3,437 bases of DNA from Escherichia coli (GCF_003334815.1 NZ_QOWO01000082.1), one strand, 5' to 3'. Numbered from the stretch's first letter, positions 1 to 3,428 are shown. A program made the numbers and translations. Notes: generated from the sequence alone by a model not told the origin.

Positions 1-73
1 CACATCCTGTCCCGTTTTTCAGGCCATTATAGCCTGTTATTTTTGTGCATCATAGTCTTATGCAGACGGCAGA

Positions 74-92
74 GGCAGGGCGCAGCCCTGCC
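74..92. other. Short GC-rich hairpin (8-bp stem GGCAGGGC / GCCCTGCC, 3-nt loop) upstream of the first gene
   Basis: Perfect inverted repeat read directly from the sequence. No adjacent U-tract on either strand, so it is not a canonical intrinsic terminator; role unknown. Confidence 0.3.
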
Positions 93-144: not shown

Positions 145-486
145 GTGCCAATGGCTTCTAAAAAATTTTACTCAGATGATGACATCCAGCTGGCAAAAGC
201 TGCCTTATCGGAATTGCCGGACCTCACCGCTCAACGGAAAACATTGCGTGATTTTCTTGATGCCATTCGTGATGACATCATTGTCCTGGTAAGGACAAAG
301 GGTTATACACTGGCAGATGTTCGTGACACGCTTAAAAATGCAGGGTATGAAGTAGGAGAGAAGGCACTTCGTGACATTATTCGGGAAGCAGAATCGAAAA
401 AACCATCCCGCCGTTCTTCCTCTAAAACAGCACCTAAAAAGACAGATTCAGGCAGGAAAGATGGCATCGATATGAACAACAATTGA
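145..486 (+). CDS. Hypothetical small protein (112-113 aa) with Lys/Arg/Ser/Thr-rich C-terminal tail; possibly DNA-binding, function not recognised
   Basis: Open frame 145..486 ending at TGA 484-486. The GTG at 145 is only ~4 nt from GGAGA (136-140), so ATG 151 (spacing ~10 nt) is the more likely start. The tail KKPSRRSSSKTAPKKTDSGRK resembles tails of small nucleic-acid-binding proteins. No family confidently recognised. Confidence 0.6.
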   Translation: MPMASKKFYSDDDIQLAKAALSELPDLTAQRKTLRDFLDAIRDDIIVLVRTKGYTLADVRDTLKNAGYEVGEKALRDIIREAESKKPSRRSSSKTAPKKTDSGRKDGIDMNNN

Positions 487-503
487 TGTGACAATGTCAC
501 ATC
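485..503. promoter_or_regulatory. Perfect 19-bp palindrome GATGTGACA-A-TGTCACATC overlapping the stop codon of the 113-aa gene
   Basis: 9+1+9 inverted repeat verified base by base (485 pairs with 503 through 493 with 495). Typical of a dimeric DNA-binding-protein site or an RNA hairpin at the end of the mRNA. Confidence 0.4.
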
Positions 504-529: not shown

Positions 530-570
530 AAAAAAAAGCCCCGGCATAAATACCAGGGCTTTTCTGTTTA
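530..570. terminator. Bidirectional rho-independent terminator between the convergent 113-aa and 283-aa genes
   Basis: A-run (530-537), stem GCCCcGG (538-544) paired with CCaGGGC (553-559) with one internal mismatch, 8-nt loop, then TTTTCTGTTT (560-569). On the - strand the stem is followed by eight U. It lies exactly between two convergent stop codons. Confidence 0.6.
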
Positions 571-571
571 A

Positions 572-1423
572 TCAGACTCGTGGCGGCAATGCACCAGGAT
601 AATACCGTGCAATAACATCATTCAGTTTTTCAACAAGGTCAGAACGCTTAAAGACAATGTGTACGGTCCCTTTCTGGTAGCCACGTACCGTAAAATATTC
701 CCCTTCTAACAGCTTACCGACATTGTCGCCGTTCCCGAGAAACTCACCATACTGCGCCCCGATGCTGCTCCGGAAGTCAGGAACGTTGCGCCCCTCCAGC
801 AGATAAAACGGACGTACCAGGTCATCCAGTGCCTCCCTTCCGCTGCAGTCCAGCGTCACACGCCCGTTACTCCAGCGGTACAGCAGGTTTTCAATAATGA
901 TTTTCTTGCCCAGACGGCAGGGATTGTTGGTTCTGTAATCCCATGACAGTTTCCTGTAGACATCAATCAGTCCTTGTTCAAATGTCTGCATCTTACTGGC
1001 ATTCAGATGGCGAAAAGTTGCCAGTACATTGTCCAGGGTGATTTCAGGACAGGTGTCGCTCATCAGCTGGCTGTTCCACTCATCACGCTGGCATGAACTC
1101 ATGAAGGTGTACATGCCCGTATCTGTCATCAGGCGGTCCCAGATTTTCCGGTCGGCAAGACGGGTGATATTCCTTTTCGCTTCTTCCGGCTTATCCATGC
1201 GACGAACGGAATCAGTCACGCAGTCTTCAAACCCGTAAAGAAAAATATCACCTGACGCATCGAGCAGAATCTTGCGCGCTGTCGCCAGGCATTCCATCGC
1301 CTGCATGAATAGTGCAATACCTTCGTTACGCTGCGCGATGATGCGGTCGATAGCCACAGACGGAATAACATCTGTCGTGCCGGCAGTATTCAGGTCAGCA
1401 GTGGGTAAAGTCTGATTCATCAC
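572..1423 (-). CDS. Conserved hypothetical protein, 283 aa, function unknown
   Basis: Long uninterrupted frame (852 nt) on the - strand with GAGGAG (complement of 1428-1433) upstream. ATG at 1420..1418 gives ~8 nt spacing and is an equally plausible start to GTG at 1423..1421. Ends at the shared terminator. No nucleotidyltransferase, methyltransferase or nuclease signature recognised by eye. Confidence 0.75.
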   Translation of the reverse strand: MMNQTLPTADLNTAGTTDVIPSVAIDRIIAQRNEGIALFMQAMECLATARKILLDASGDIFLYGFEDCVTDSVRRMDKPEEAKRNITRLADRKIWDRLMTDTGMYTFMSSCQRDEWNSQLMSDTCPEITLDNVLATFRHLNASKMQTFEQGLIDVYRKLSWDYRTNNPCRLGKKIIIENLLYRWSNGRVTLDCSGREALDDLVRPFYLLEGRNVPDFRSSIGAQYGEFLGNGDNVGKLLEGEYFTVRGYQKGTVHIVFKRSDLVEKLNDVIARYYPGALPPRV

Positions 1424-1440
1424 ATTGTCTCCTCATCGTC

Positions 1441-1890
1441 ACGACTGCCGGGTCAGCCAGGTCATTTCCCGGAGGAGCGAAGCTCCTTCTGCCGTCCGGG
1501 TCTTAGGGTATTTCCCCGCAGTGGACCTTTCCGACGGGGGACGCTCACCACGTCACGGGGCAGTTGTCCGGGGGCAGACGCAAAAGTTTTTGACGCCTGC
1601 GGCAAAAAGTTTTGTGGCTGGTACATCTCTCCCCTGGACGACTGAAACGGGATGTGGTCGTGTATGTACCCCCGGAAAGTCCGTCTGCGGAGAACAGGCC
1701 GCAGTGCGGCGGCAGACAGGCAGAGACAGCTGCGCCATCAGGCGCAGTGGCCTTACACACCGTCAGGTGTGCAGGGAGCGCCGCATCCGGCGCGACTGGA
1801 GAAAACCGACGGCACAACAACGGCATGCGGTGGTCACTGGTACACCACTCCCGCACAGGTGAAAACAGAGAAAACAGCACGACATCCATA
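1441..1890. other. GC-rich, apparently non-coding spacer containing a series of short perfect GC-stem hairpins; candidate structured RNA or DNA element
   Basis: Hand counts give roughly 55-70% GC per 60-nt line versus ~50% in flanking genes. All three + frames and two - frames are open simultaneously (stop-codon depletion from GC richness, not coding). Hairpins: 1471-1489 (loop GAA), 1685-1704, 1730-1747 (7 bp, loop ATCA), 1756-1771 (6 bp, loop GTCA), 1778-1793 (6 bp, loop CATC). Confidence 0.4.
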
Positions 1891-1900
1891 ATCAAAAAAA

Positions 1901-1915
1901 GTGAAATTTCTTCAC
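1901..1915. promoter_or_regulatory. Operator-like palindrome GTGAA-N5-TTCAC (copy 1), upstream of the HTH gene promoter
   Basis: GTGAAatttcTTCAC followed by TTTTTCA. A second copy with the same half-sites and the same 3' flank is at 1968-1982. Confidence 0.4.
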
Positions 1916-1950
1916 TTTTTCACACTTATTTATCGCGCTGATTTGGTGAT

Positions 1951-1964
1951 TATGATGATAAAAT
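1951..1964 (+). promoter_or_regulatory. Putative -10 region of the HTH gene promoter (TATGAT 1951-1956 and/or TG-n-TAAAAT 1956-1964)
   Basis: AT-rich sequence with two overlapping -10-like hexamers ~35-45 nt upstream of ATG 2000. The 12-mer TGATGATAAAAT is identical to 106-117 upstream of the first gene, at almost the same distance from the start codon. Confidence 0.4.
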
Positions 1965-1967
1965 AAA

Positions 1968-1982
1968 GTGAAGTTTTTTCAC
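1968..1982. promoter_or_regulatory. Operator-like palindrome GTGAA-N5-TTCAC (copy 2), overlapping the predicted transcription start of the HTH gene
   Basis: GTGAAgttttTTCAC followed by TTTTTCA. The two copies are 67 bp apart centre to centre and bracket the -10 region, a classic autoregulation layout. Confidence 0.4.
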
Positions 1983-1999
1983 TTTTTCAAAGGTGTTTT

Positions 2000-2262: not shown

Positions 2263-2283
2263 AGCCTGGCAGAATGCCAGGCT
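2263..2283. other. Hairpin (8-bp stem AGCCTGGC / GCCAGGCT, 5-nt loop) between the convergent HTH gene and the orphan small ORF
   Basis: Perfect inverted repeat overlapping the stop codon (TAG, 2284..2282) of the - strand small ORF. No U-tract, so it may be a transcript-stabilising stem or weak terminator. Confidence 0.3.
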
Positions 2284-2488
2284 ACTGCTCATCAGGAAAC
2301 AGCTTTTTCAGTTCTTCACCGGAAAGTCCCGTGACCTCCTGAATCCGTTCCGGCGGCCAGCCTATATCCCGCAGCCGGCAGGCTATTTCCCGCGCCACTT
2401 CAAGAGCCCCTTGTTTAAAACCTTGTTTAAAACCTTCTTTAAAACCCTCGTCGAAACCTTTCTGTATAAGACGTTCTGCAATCGTCAT
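2282..2488 (-). CDS. Orphan small protein (68 aa) paralogous to the C-terminal tail of Rpn nucleases (RpnS-like), with tetrapeptide repeats GFDE-GFKE-GFKQ-GFKQ
   Basis: Its first residues MTIAERL are identical to the internal segment MTIAERL of the upstream Rpn protein. The remainder follows the same pattern (KG...ALEvAreIA...g..pEqIqe.TGLS.EELKK). Nucleotide similarity around the ATG: 2470-2488 vs 2681-2699 is 17/19 identical. The SD is weak (GGAG ~13 nt upstream) and an intrinsic terminator lies just upstream, so expression is uncertain. Confidence 0.55.
   Translation of the reverse strand: MTIAERLIQKGFDEGFKEGFKQGFKQGALEVAREIACRLRDIGWPPERIQEVTGLSGEELKKLFPDEQ
2411..2458. repeat. In-frame 12-bp tandem repeat, 4 units (TTGTTTAAAACC x2, TTCTTTAAAACC, CTCGTCGAAACC), encoding the GFK(Q/E)/GFDE tetrapeptide repeats
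   Basis: Two identical adjacent 12-mers, a third with one mismatch and a fourth diverged, all in codon register on the - strand. A substrate for slipped-strand copy-number change without frameshift. Confidence 0.85.
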
Positions 2489-2549: not shown

Positions 2550-2699
2550 TCAGTGAATGACTTTTTTCAGTTCAGCTTCGGAAAGTCCGGTGGCCTGCTT
2601 AATCTGCTCAGGTGTCATCCCCATTTTCTGAAGCTGACGCGCAATGGCAAGGGCTTTTTCAAGCGCACCTTTCTGCTCAAGACGTTCTGCGATTGTCAT
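2550..2699 (-). CDS. Putative intragenic small protein (49 aa, RpnS-like) translated from an internal in-frame ATG of the Rpn gene
   Basis: Internal ATG at 2699..2697 in the rpn frame, preceded by GAGGAT (complement of 2706-2711) with 7-nt spacing. Product would be MTIAERLEQKGALEKALAIARQLQKMGMTPEQIKQATGLSEAELKKVIH. Consistent with reported intragenic antitoxins of Rpn nucleases (from memory). Confidence 0.45.
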   Translation of the reverse strand: MTIAERLEQKGALEKALAIARQLQKMGMTPEQIKQATGLSEAELKKVIH

Positions 2700-3428
2700 C
2701 AGTTTATCCTCATGCTGCGGCAGGCGCTCGGCCAGCGCCCGCATAAATTCCGGTGATACAGAGTCCCCTGCGTTAACGATGTAATGAATCAGAACACGCA
2801 CCTGCTCGTCTGAAATTTCCACCATGACCTGCGGGAGTTTGTCCAGCAGCTCCATCATGTCACGATGGCGGATATGCTTCATCAGCAGCGTCAGTGCGGC
2901 CATCCGGCGATGGTTCATGATTTCATTGTCATCAACGACAGTGATATCAACCAGCGGAAACGGCTTTGTGTATATTTTAGCCGCAAGTGACGGATTCTCA
3001 AAACAGTCCAGCCAGTTCATGCTGTACGGATACGGGCTGCGCTCACCATGATAGAACAGCACCGGAATCACCAGTGGCAACGTTTTGTGCTGCTCCAGAT
3101 GTCTCTGCATCGCCGCCACACTGTAACGTAACATGCGGAAAGGCATGTACAGATTTTCGGTGCTCTGGTGCTCGATGAGCGTATAAACATAGCCATCTTC
3201 ACCCCCGGTGGTTTTCACGCTCCAGAGGATATCGCTGGCGTACTGATGCAGGTCCGGCTCAACAAAGGTGGCGGGTTCCAGCTTCAGCGTGGACAGGTCG
3301 CACAACTGCCGGTACTCCGCCGGAAGATGCAGTTCCAGAAAATCTCTGGCGACGTCGGGATTCGCCAGGAACGACCGGAACGCGGCATCATGCGGCGTGG
3401 GCGTTGTGGTGTTTTTCTTCTTACTCAC
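2550..3428 (-). CDS. Rpn family recombination-promoting nuclease / YhgA-like putative transposase (PD-(D/E)xK nuclease), 292 aa
   Basis: N-terminus TPHDAAFRSFLANPDVARDFLELHLP and the core DILWSVKT...YVYTLIEHQS match the YhgA/Rpn family (Pfam Transposase_31-like) as I recall it. The C-terminal tail ...AERLEQKG...TGLSEAELKK is the typical Rpn tail. GTG start at 3428..3426 with GGAGG (complement of 3433-3437) 4 nt upstream. Gene is complete, but its promoter lies outside the window. Confidence 0.9.
   Translation of the reverse strand: MSKKKNTTTPTPHDAAFRSFLANPDVARDFLELHLPAEYRQLCDLSTLKLEPATFVEPDLHQYASDILWSVKTTGGEDGYVYTLIEHQSTENLYMPFRMLRYSVAAMQRHLEQHKTLPLVIPVLFYHGERSPYPYSMNWLDCFENPSLAAKIYTKPFPLVDITVVDDNEIMNHRRMAALTLLMKHIRHRDMMELLDKLPQVMVEISDEQVRVLIHYIVNAGDSVSPEFMRALAERLPQHEDKLMTIAERLEQKGALEKALAIARQLQKMGMTPEQIKQATGLSEAELKKVIH
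2706..2711 (-). promoter_or_regulatory. Internal Shine-Dalgarno (GAGGAT) inside the Rpn coding sequence, serving the internal ATG at 2699
   Basis: - strand reads GAGGATAAACTG-ATG; AGGA lies 7-8 nt upstream of the ATG, which is near-optimal spacing. Confidence 0.4.

What the first reader, a model, noticed from the sequence alone, without database searches (positions are those of the whole stretch)
1441..1890. GC-rich non-coding block with a train of short perfect hairpins between divergent gene starts
Seen in sequence: ~450 bp at roughly 55-70% GC in locally ~50% GC DNA. There is no credible ORF; frames are open on both strands only because stops are depleted. At least five perfect short hairpins are present (1471-1489, 1685-1704, 1730-1747, 1756-1771, 1778-1793). 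Three of them are consecutive with 4-nt loops ATCA / GTCA / CATC and spacers of 6-8 nt. It lies between the start of the 283-aa gene (- strand) and the promoter of the HTH gene (+ strand). Candidate roles: a long structured 5' leader or sRNA, a binding array for a DNA/RNA-binding protein, an origin or recombination site, or a decayed GC-rich insertion. I cannot match it to a known RNA family from memory.
Basis: seen in the sequence. Interest (0 to 1): 0.6.

Follow-up and report, generated by a model that had tools for sequence, protein, structure and literature searches.

The report
Known plasmid single-stranded-DNA promoter (ssi1/Frpo)
The GC-rich hairpin block is the already described "ssi1/Frpo" element of IncI1 (ColIb-P9-type) conjugative plasmids: when the plasmid strand enters a new cell it folds into a long hairpin that host RNA polymerase uses as a promoter, so the finding is real but not new.

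Summary
Window 1441-1890 is 61% GC against 50% for the rest of the window. It carries five perfect short hairpins, against 0.9 expected by chance (P about 0.002).

This is a 229-nt imperfect hairpin at 1488-1716, which folds far better on the + strand (-65.7 kcal/mol, z -7.4) than on the - strand (-49.0, z -3.4).

Window 1470-1798 is 325/329 identical to the published ColIb-P9 "Frpo1/ssi1" sequence (AJ238399.1:1459-1787). It is equally close to ssi1 of pESBL-EA11. For pESBL, published RNA-seq and 5' RACE report early induction and start sites for ssi1-3.

The window is the first 3.4 kb of an IncI1 leading region. The oriT nick motif ACATCCTG|T sits at window 9/10, which makes the + strand the transferred strand and the template of the 283-aa DUF4942 gene.

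Two paralogues (ssi2, ssi3) lie further along the same plasmid. Eleven family members show compensatory changes in 18 of 43 stem pairs.

Verdict: an already known class-1 single-stranded-DNA promoter and priming site. The -35/-10 boxes could not be placed from sequence alone. The role of the conserved three-hairpin train remains open.

The parts
1470..1798 (+). ssi1 / 'Frpo1' repeat unit of ColIb-P9-type IncI1 plasmids (329 nt), a class-1 single-stranded-DNA promoter; the + strand is the active (transferred) strand
   Evidence: 325/329 identical to AJ238399.1:1459-1787 listed as 'ColIb P-9 Frpo1' in Samuel et al. 2024 Suppl. file 4. 98.8% identical to ssi1 of pESBL-EA11. 82% and 80% to the two paralogues on the same plasmid.
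1488..1716 (+). Main imperfect stem-loop of the ssDNA promoter (apical loop 1596-1599)
   Evidence: DNA-parameter MFE -65.7 kcal/mol, z -7.44 on the + strand; -49.0, z -3.44 on the - strand. Helix list. 92% of cells paired and 18/43 pairs with compensatory change in 11 family members; 0/500 shuffles reach this; slid controls about 49%.
1561..1644 (+). Upper part of the hairpin: 14-bp helix 1561-1574/1631-1644 (carries TTGACA-like TGGACG at 1635-1640) plus the A/T-rich apical helix 1575-1595/1600-1620
   Evidence: Pair probabilities 0.94 and 0.99. CCCCTGGAC / GTCCGGGG are among the most conserved columns of the family alignment. This is the part that still matches IncF Frpo at 75-78%.
1621..1630 (+). 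Conserved 10-nt unpaired bulge GTACATCTCT on the 3' arm; candidate pre-melted -10-like element (inference)
   Evidence: Unpaired probability 0.78-0.99 for 1622-1630. G1621, C1624, A1625, T1626 and T1628 are nearly invariant across IncI, IncF and other members although unpaired.
1473..1487 (+). Small hairpin abutting the base of the main stem; contains d(GCGAAGC) at 1477-1483
   Evidence: 6-bp stem with GAA loop, pair probability 0.87. ssi2 and ssi3 carry GCGAAAGC at the same place. Both are the unusually stable DNA 'mini-hairpin' motifs reviewed in PMC13037366.
1730..1793 (+). Train of three short GC-rich hairpins (1730-1747, 1756-1771, 1778-1793) at the 3' side of the main hairpin, i.e. upstream of the promoter; part of the repeat unit, role unknown
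   Evidence: Pair probabilities 0.92-0.99; z -2.8 to -5.0. Two or three hairpins in a row fold at the same place in the IncI, IncF, insect-metagenome and Salmonella members, with different stem sequences in the different plasmid groups.
1799..1890 (.). GC-rich flank outside the repeat unit, specific to the ssi1 locus
   Evidence: The paralogue matches end at about 1799. The flank is conserved in the orthologous loci of ColIb-P9 and an IncK2/Z plasmid.
572..1420 (-). DUF4942 gene (282 aa from ATG 1420), the gene downstream of ssi1 and templated by the + strand
   Evidence: RefSeq CDS WP_001077032.1. Pfam DUF4942, E 6.9e-50. Same gene at the same place in ColIb-P9, pESBL-EA11 and an IncK2/Z plasmid.
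530..576 (-). Terminator-like hairpin plus U8 just after the DUF4942 stop codon; probable end of the ssi1 transcription unit
   Evidence: The weak Rfam hits all align to a GC stem followed by UUUUUUUU on the - strand. Not flagged by the simple scan, whose loop limit is 8.
1..10 (+). oriT nick region, ACATCCTG|T (nic between 9 and 10)
   Evidence: The 17-bp inverted repeat lies immediately upstream (L001 13539-13578) and the motif ends 8 nt after it. The nick position is taken from my memory of Furuya & Komano 1991 and the MOBP consensus YATCCTG|Y; it was not re-read here.

Best explanation
This is ssi1 (also called Frpo1) of a ColIb-P9-type IncI1 plasmid, a class-1 single-stranded-DNA promoter.

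Proposed mechanism:
1. During conjugation the + strand is cut at oriT (window 9/10) and enters the recipient 5' end first.
2. The template of the DUF4942 gene enters first, followed about 1.5-1.7 kb from nic by the two arms of the 1488-1716 hairpin.
3. The arms snap together into a 229-nt imperfect duplex that mimics double-stranded promoter DNA.
4. Host sigma-70 RNA polymerase binds it and transcribes leftwards, back towards oriT, using the incoming strand as template. DUF4942 is therefore made before the complementary strand exists.
5. The same transcripts can prime complementary-strand synthesis.
6. Once the region is double-stranded the hairpin is gone and the promoter is off.

Shown here: identity to the published element, position and orientation relative to oriT, strand-specific folding, and covariation.

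Taken from the literature on identical or homologous copies: RNA polymerase dependence, activity only in single-stranded form, early induction, mapped start sites, and priming.

Inferred and unresolved: which nucleotides act as the -35 and -10 boxes.
For: Identity:
- Window 1470-1798 is 325/329 identical to AJ238399.1:1459-1787, 'ColIb P-9 Frpo1'.
- It is 72% identical to F ssiD over window 1433-1675.
- It is 98.8% identical to ssi1 of pESBL-EA11, and the whole window is 96.1% identical to pESBL.

Context:
- The gene order is nikB-nikA-oriT-[113 aa]-DUF4942-ssi1-HTH-Rpn...ardA-psiA-psiB-parB-ssb. The establishment genes all lie on the - strand.
- The nick motif and the 17-bp inverted repeat are in the right place.
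- There are three copies per plasmid.

Structure:
- Strand-specific fold of the main hairpin.
- The T-strand is more stable than its complement in 11 of 11 family members, by 5-15 kcal/mol.
- G.T cells outnumber A.C cells 56 to 9.
- Covariation: 18/43 pairs, 0/500 shuffles.

No consensus double-stranded sigma-70 promoter faces the DUF4942 gene inside 1441-1890.

Distribution: the element occurs in 1341 of 5426 complete E. coli genomes, with 2666 of 2696 places on plasmids. It occurs in at least 5000 plasmid records.

Literature:
- ssi1-3 are described as Frpo homologues in ColIb-P9 (Bates 1999, cited in PMC9849209 and PMC12672017).
- F deletions of Frpo1 or Frpo2 abolish early expression (PMC9849209).
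- In pESBL, leading-region genes are induced up to about 500-fold, and 5' RACE start sites are reported for ssi1-3 (PMC12672017).
Against: - I could not place convincing -35/-10 hexamers. A position-weight scan gave no candidate that is both strong and conserved across family members.
- No transcript data were available for this exact plasmid.
- The primary papers (Masai & Arai 1997; Bates 1999; Nasim 2004) and Supplementary Fig. S3 of PMC12672017 were not readable here. The mechanism therefore rests on secondary accounts.
- The structure used for the G.T count was predicted on the + strand, which biases that count. The MFE comparison is not biased in this way.
- The assignment of the + strand as the T-strand uses a nick position recalled from memory.
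Confidence: 0.93

Rival explanations
1. The block acts at the RNA level, as a structured 5' leader of the DUF4942 mRNA or as an independent small RNA.
For: Part of the element must be transcribed as a leader if the start site lies inside the hairpin. The base of the stem (1488) is only 67 nt from the start codon. The short perfect hairpins fold equally well on either strand.
Against: The mRNA has - strand sense, and the - strand folds 16.7 kcal/mol worse. All 11 family members show the same asymmetry. G.T pairs on the + strand become C.A mismatches in - sense RNA. No Rfam family reaches threshold; the best match in the region has E = 0.17 to a eukaryotic lncRNA model without structure. No terminator-like site lies in the region. 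The GCGAAGC/GCGAAAGC caps are DNA-specific stability motifs.
Confidence: 0.03
2. The block is primarily a single-strand origin (priming site) for complementary-strand synthesis, and gene expression is secondary.
For: Frpo was found as ssiD, a priming signal. Its transcripts persist as RNA-DNA hybrids used by DNA polymerase in vitro (PMC7690428). Rifampicin-sensitive early conversion near ssp1/Frpo loci has been reported in vivo (bioRxiv 10.64898/2026.01.09.698686).
Against: This is a second role of the same element rather than a true rival. [quoted passage not shown] Every copy here sits directly upstream of - strand genes with ribosome-binding sites.
Confidence: 0.03
3. The block is a decayed or frameshifted gene, or a GC-rich insertion with no function.
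For: RefSeq annotates a 65-aa 'hypothetical protein' over 1769-1966 in ColIb-P9 and pESBL. The same ORF carries an internal stop here. Long open frames exist.
Against: That ORF covers only the last small hairpin and the AT-rich flank. Paralogues differ by many 1-, 2- and 5-nt indels. Stem pairs covary. The element occurs three times per plasmid and in thousands of plasmids.
Confidence: 0.01

Closest known systems
ColIb-P9 ssi1 ('Frpo1', AJ238399.1:1459-1787; Bates et al. 1999) and its copy in pESBL-EA11
   Same: Essentially the same sequence: 325/329 identical to ColIb-P9 ssi1 and 98.8% to the pESBL copy. Same neighbours (DUF4942 on one side, HTH on the other). Same distance from oriT.
   Different: Four substitutions relative to ColIb-P9. 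One lies in the loop of the second small hairpin (window 1763, C against A). Two lie in the lower left arm (1504, 1508) and one in the lower right arm (1682).
ColIb-P9 ssi2 and ssi3 (paralogues on the same plasmid)
   Same: Same 329-nt architecture: capped small hairpin, long hairpin with bulge, hairpin train. 80-82% identity by BLAST.
   Different: They drive other operons: ssi3 upstream of ssb through psiA, ssi2 upstream of the genes that include Rpn. They have a larger apical loop, GCGAAAGC in place of GCGAAGC, and ssi3 has a weaker third small hairpin.
F plasmid Frpo1 (ssiD) and Frpo2 (Masai & Arai 1997; Couturier et al. 2023)
   Same: Homologous upper hairpin at about 72-78% identity, conserved bulge motif, A/T-rich tip, leading-region position, T-strand orientation.
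   Different: The lower stem and flanks are not alignable. The small hairpins have different sequences. The downstream genes differ: in the IncF copy examined (L003) the Frpo1 homologue sits upstream of small hypothetical ORFs and a DUF932 gene, not DUF4942. The relaxase family differs (MOBF against MOBP).
Class 2 and class 3 ssDNA promoters of pESBL (upstream of ardA/klcA and of M.EcoGIX; PMC12672017)
   Same: Same proposed logic: hairpin promoters on the transferred strand in the same leading region.
   Different: The authors report no sequence homology to ssi1-3. I did not examine them.
ssoA-type single-strand origins of rolling-circle plasmids, and phage N4 hairpin promoters
   Same: Folded single-stranded DNA recognised by an RNA polymerase. 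Works alike in principle (from my own knowledge and PMC7690428, PMC13037366).
   Different: Unrelated sequences. sso elements make only short primers. N4 uses a phage-encoded polymerase and 5-7-bp hairpins.

Membership tests
Frpo/ssi class-1 single-stranded-DNA promoters | Sequence homology to the founding members (F ssiD/Frpo; ColIb-P9 ssi1-3) | tested here: met
   325/329 to ColIb-P9 ssi1; 274/316 and 269/318 to ssi2 and ssi3; 167/232 to F ssiD.
Frpo/ssi class-1 single-stranded-DNA promoters | [quoted passage not shown] | tested here: met
   1.46-1.79 kb from the nick motif; nikA and nikB on the other side of oriT; ardA, psiB, psiA and ssb further along.
Frpo/ssi class-1 single-stranded-DNA promoters | The hairpin-forming strand is the transferred strand and is the template of the downstream genes | tested here: met
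   ACATCCTG|T lies on the + strand, 8 nt after the 17-bp inverted repeat. The + strand aligns to the published ssi sequences in their listed orientation. The downstream gene is on the - strand. The nick strand is inferred from the MOBP consensus, not measured.
Frpo/ssi class-1 single-stranded-DNA promoters | Long imperfect stem-loop in the single strand, evolutionarily maintained and strand-specific | tested here: met
   z -7.4 against -3.4. 11/11 members more stable on the T-strand. Covariation beats 500/500 shuffles and all slid controls.
Frpo/ssi class-1 single-stranded-DNA promoters | Stem reconstitutes -35 and -10 boxes, with mismatches around the -10 box | tested here: inconclusive
   Three candidate registers were found:
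- TTGTGG 1612-1617 / 17 nt / TGGACG 1635-1640.
- TGGACG 1635-1640 / 17 nt / TCGTGT 1658-1663, in a mismatch-rich stretch.
- A -10-like TACATC in the conserved bulge, 1622-1627.
None scores well and none is clearly conserved.
Frpo/ssi class-1 single-stranded-DNA promoters | Transcribed by host sigma-70 RNA polymerase only in single-stranded form; silent as duplex | not testable with these tools
   Consistent: no consensus duplex promoter faces the gene within 1441-1890. Experimental evidence exists for F Frpo and ColIb ssi3, known to me only through secondary accounts.
Frpo/ssi class-1 single-stranded-DNA promoters | Early (zygotic) induction of the downstream genes in transconjugants, with a start site in the hairpin | not testable with these tools
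   Reported for ssi1-3 of pESBL (PMC12672017). The pESBL ssi1 is 98.8% identical to this copy.
Any Rfam RNA family (leader, riboswitch, sRNA) | Covariance-model score at or above the family's gathering threshold | tested here: not met
   The best hit in the region is 20.7 bits against a threshold of 50, to an unstructured eukaryotic lncRNA model.
Intrinsic terminator array | GC hairpin followed by a T/U run | tested here: not met
   No terminator-like sites in 1380-2010 on either strand. No T run follows any of the five hairpins.
Protein-coding gene or pseudogene | Reading frame conserved among homologues | tested here: not met
   Paralogues differ by indels that are not multiples of three. 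The only annotated ORF (65 aa, 1769-1966) overlaps just the 3' edge and is interrupted here.

The most novel reading that the evidence does not exclude
The flanking small hairpins may be a separate functional module of class-1 ssDNA promoters rather than decoration. They comprise the d(GCGAAGC)-capped stem at the base and the three-hairpin train at 1730-1793. A hairpin train is kept at this place across the IncI, IncF, insect-metagenome and Salmonella members, with different stem sequences in the different plasmid groups. They could act as clamps that keep SSB or RecA from invading the main stem.
Probability: 0.2. Interest if true: 0.4.

Novelty: already known. Interest (0 to 1): 0.12.

Why it matters
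ssDNA promoters give a conjugative plasmid a burst of anti-restriction, anti-SOS and other establishment proteins before the host can respond. They therefore bear on how resistance plasmids spread. This copy adds nothing new to that picture.

It is a useful positive control for the scan. A reader working from sequence alone flagged a real, functional non-coding element that genome annotation leaves blank or mislabels as a hypothetical protein. The practical lesson is that such elements are absent from Rfam and from standard annotation pipelines. GC-rich 'empty' intergenic blocks next to oriT should be compared against the published Frpo/ssi sequences.

Tried and rejected
- Rfam at a permissive threshold found nothing relevant.
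- NCBIfam gave no family for the 283-, 113- and 83-aa proteins. Pfam gave only DUF4942.
- I tried to read the primary papers and related sources: Masai & Arai 1997, Bates 1999, Nasim 2004, Bikard 2010, Furuya & Komano 1991. None is held. No supplement is held for PMC12672017. The supplement of PMC9849209 has only the figure legend.
- A full-text search for a description of the -10 mismatches found nothing.
- I tried to place the -35/-10 boxes with a consensus scan and a position-weight scan over 11 aligned family members. No register was both strong and conserved.
- A basal TTGACG-17-TTTTGT site scores best in the IncF copies. It is absent from the IncI copies. Its pairing partner is missing from the Frpo2 fragment used in the anti-CRISPR leading-region construct of Samuel et al., and the leading-region anti-CRISPR largely overcame Cas9. 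I rejected it.
- I rejected the idea that the 1685-1704 hairpin is an independent element.
- L004, a Salmonella IncFIB plasmid, holds only a 97-nt remnant next to a transposase and was not used further.

Full report
**What the window is.**
Megablast of 1424-1999 against complete E. coli genomes finds the stretch in 1341 of 5426 genomes. Of 2696 places, 2666 are on plasmids, with a median of two places per genome.

The 100% match lies on an IncI1-type plasmid. Its gene order is trbABC, nikB, nikA, a 113-aa ORF, the DUF4942 gene, the finding, an HTH gene, an RpnC-like ORF, Rpn, then ardA, psiA, psiB, parB and ssb. These genes and those beyond them to the DUF1281 gene all lie on the - strand. ColIb-P9 itself, pESBL-EA11 and an IncK2/Z plasmid have the same arrangement.

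Between nikA and the 113-aa ORF lies a 17-bp inverted repeat (L001 13539-13578). It is followed by ACATCCTG|TCCC, and the G|T step falls at window 9/10. As I recall Furuya & Komano 1991 and the MOBP consensus YATCCTG|Y, this is the nick region. I could not re-read those papers.

It follows that the + strand is the transferred strand. The window is the first 3.4 kb to enter a recipient. The - strand genes use the incoming strand as their template.

**The observation.**
The numbers hold. GC is 0.609 for 1441-1890 against 0.499 for the rest of the window, and stop trinucleotides are depleted three- to four-fold on the + strand.

Five perfect short hairpins are present at the stated places. One qualification: the first is perfect only over 1473-1487. 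Dinucleotide-preserving shuffles give 0.87 such hairpins on average, and 0.2% of shuffles reach the observed count.

Folded as single-stranded DNA, the + strand forms one long imperfect hairpin at 1488-1716 with its tip at 1596-1599. Its energy is -65.7 kcal/mol (z -7.44). The - strand reaches only -49.0 (z -3.44).

The hairpin has these parts:
- an A/T-rich apical helix;
- a 10-nt bulge, GTACATCTCT (1621-1630), on the 3' arm;
- a 14-bp helix at 1561-1574/1631-1644;
- progressively more mismatched lower helices.

CTGCGG at 1685-1690 pairs with 1516-1521 at probability 0.91, against 0.05 for the local fold. The other four short hairpins survive in the ensemble (0.87-0.99). They flank the long hairpin, one at its 5' base and three in a row at its 3' side.

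**Identity.**
A literature search for single-stranded promoters of leading regions led to the table of known Frpo/ssi sequences in Samuel et al. 2024 (PMC11541004, Suppl. file 4).

- Window 1470-1798 matches 'ColIb P-9 Frpo1', AJ238399.1:1459-1787, at 325 of 329 positions.
- It matches ssi2 at 274/316 and ssi3 at 269/318.
- It matches F ssiD at 167/232.
- The same plasmid carries two more copies, at L001 17914-18242 and 24258-24589. The second of these lies upstream of ssb.
- pESBL-EA11 carries an ssi1 that is 98.8% identical, and the whole window is 96.1% identical to that plasmid.

A more sensitive search hits the 5000-record ceiling in the plasmid collection. The upper hairpin (window 1565-1675) still matches IncF plasmids at 75-78%.

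**Is the structure selected?**
I aligned 11 family members: five IncI/IncK copies, two IncF copies, and four published candidates from Serratia, an insect metagenome and Salmonella. RNAalifold recovers the long hairpin.

On that structure:
- 92.1% of cells pair, against 82.2% in shuffles.
- 18 of 43 pairs show changes on both sides, against 10.1 in shuffles.
- No shuffle out of 500 reaches any of the five measures.
- Sliding the partners by 1-3 columns drops pairing to 42-54% and compensated pairs to 5-9.

G.T cells outnumber A.C cells 56 to 9. Independently of any assumed structure, the T-strand folds 5-15 kcal/mol better than its complement in all 11 members. This asymmetry points to the + strand DNA as the folded entity, and away from the - sense mRNA.

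The small hairpin at the base ends in d(GCGAAGC) in ssi1 and d(GCGAAAGC) in ssi2 and ssi3. These are the two most stable DNA 'mini-hairpin' motifs (PMC13037366). Their complements are not such motifs.

**Mechanism, from the literature.**
- Frpo folds into a stem-loop that presents -35 and -10 boxes. E. coli RNA polymerase starts RNA synthesis on it in vitro, and the RNA can prime DNA synthesis (Masai & Arai 1997 as summarised in PMC9849209 and PMC7690428).
- Homologous ssi sequences were found in ColIb-P9 (Bates 1999).
- An anti-CRISPR gene under an Frpo protects the plasmid well only when it sits in the leading region on the T-strand.
- In pESBL, leading-region genes in six operons rise up to about 500-fold within 15 min. 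Three of the six upstream hairpins are ssi1-3, classed together with Frpo as 'class 1'. 5' RACE found start sites for all six.
- Rifampicin-sensitive early conversion near Frpo loci supports priming in vivo.

No consensus duplex sigma-70 promoter faces the DUF4942 gene inside the block. That fits a promoter that is silent once double-stranded.

The unit that ssi1 drives here appears to be a single gene. The DUF4942 gene (Pfam E 6.9e-50) ends at 572 and is followed by a terminator-like stem plus U8 at 530-576 on the - strand.

**What I could not settle.**
The -35 and -10 hexamers remain unplaced. Geometry requires the 3' arm to act as the non-template strand if initiation is in the upper hairpin and transcription leaves through the base. 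On that arm I see three registers:
- TTGTGG (1612-1617), 17 nt including the bulge, TGGACG (1635-1640). Both end positions of TGGACG are G.T pairs.
- TGGACG as the -35 box within the conserved 14-bp helix, with a poor -10 box at 1658-1663 in a mismatch-rich stretch.
- A -10-like TACATC (1622-1627) in the bulge, preceded by TG at 1619-1620. The bulge's CAT core is nearly invariant although unpaired.

None is both strong and conserved. The figures that would decide the matter are not held.

The role of the three-hairpin train is also open. A hairpin train folds at the same place in the IncI, IncF, insect-metagenome and Salmonella members, with different stem sequences in the different plasmid groups. 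It is therefore probably functional.

**Verdict.**
The finding is a real, functional non-coding element. It is ssi1/Frpo1 of ColIb-P9-type plasmids, described in 1999 and studied experimentally since then. Of its candidate roles, only 'origin' comes near the answer. Novelty: already known. Interest: low.

Noticed in passing
window 1-92; L001 13539-13669: The window starts inside oriT. The nick motif ACATCCTG|T is at 2-10, directly after a 17-bp inverted repeat that lies just outside the window. An 8-bp perfect inverted repeat, GGCAGGGC/GCCCTGCC, is at window 74-92. These match the '17-bp and 8-bp repeats' described for R64-type oriT (PMC3817090).
   Followed up: partly
window 1891-1999: The AT-rich stretch in front of the 83-aa HTH gene holds two related palindromes: AAAAAGTGAA-N5-TTCACTTTTT (1896-1920) and AAAGTGAA-N5-TTCACTTT (1965-1985). 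They are probably operators of the HTH protein. A promoter-like site on the - strand (GTGAAA-16-TATCAT, 1982 to 1955) points through ssi1 towards the DUF4942 gene. It could give regulated expression from duplex DNA.
   Followed up: no
L002 12001-12460 (IncK2/Z plasmid NZ_CP013024.1), aligned to window 1424-1999: The element at the ssi1 position of this plasmid is a mosaic. Its flanks are about 97% identical to the window, but the centre (window about 1536-1795) is 96% identical to ssi3. This is a gene-conversion or recombination patch between paralogous copies. PMC3817090 describes a 9.7-kb deletion between such repeats.
   Followed up: partly
window 1769-1966 (+): RefSeq annotates a 65-aa hypothetical protein here in ColIb-P9 and pESBL-EA11. 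In this window the frame has an internal stop (…ARHP*SKK…). The ORF overlaps the last small hairpin and the HTH operator region, and is probably not a real gene.
   Followed up: partly
window 2282-2488 (-) and 2550-3428 (-): A full-length Rpn (YhgA-like) nuclease gene is followed by a 68-aa ORF. The ORF resembles only the C-terminal 50-60 residues of Rpn proteins (TIGR01784 positions 223-273, E 1.7e-5). Its coding sequence contains a 12-nt tandem repeat (ccttgtttaaaa, about 2404-2440) that encodes GFKQGFKQGFKEGF.
   Followed up: partly
window 485-503 and 530-576: Between the convergent 113-aa and DUF4942 genes lie two features. One is a 19-nt palindrome, GATGTGACAATGTCACATC. The other is a GC stem flanked by A8 and T-rich runs, which looks like a two-way terminator. 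The latter produced all the weak sRNA-family hits in the Rfam scan.
   Followed up: no
window 1620-1626 and 1664-1670: There is a perfect 7-nt complement specific to ssi1 (GGTACAT / ATGTACC) within the 3' arm. It could pair the conserved bulge with a stretch that is an insertion relative to ssi2 and ssi3, giving an alternative local fold.
   Followed up: no
L003 11863-12265 and 17253-17653 (Klebsiella IncF plasmid): Both IncF Frpo copies are followed by a 29-nt stretch that matches the 3' end of the IncI ssi repeat at 93% (AGCGCAGG(T/C)CACGGCGCGACAG). The last small hairpin region is therefore the most conserved piece outside the upper stem.
   Followed up: no
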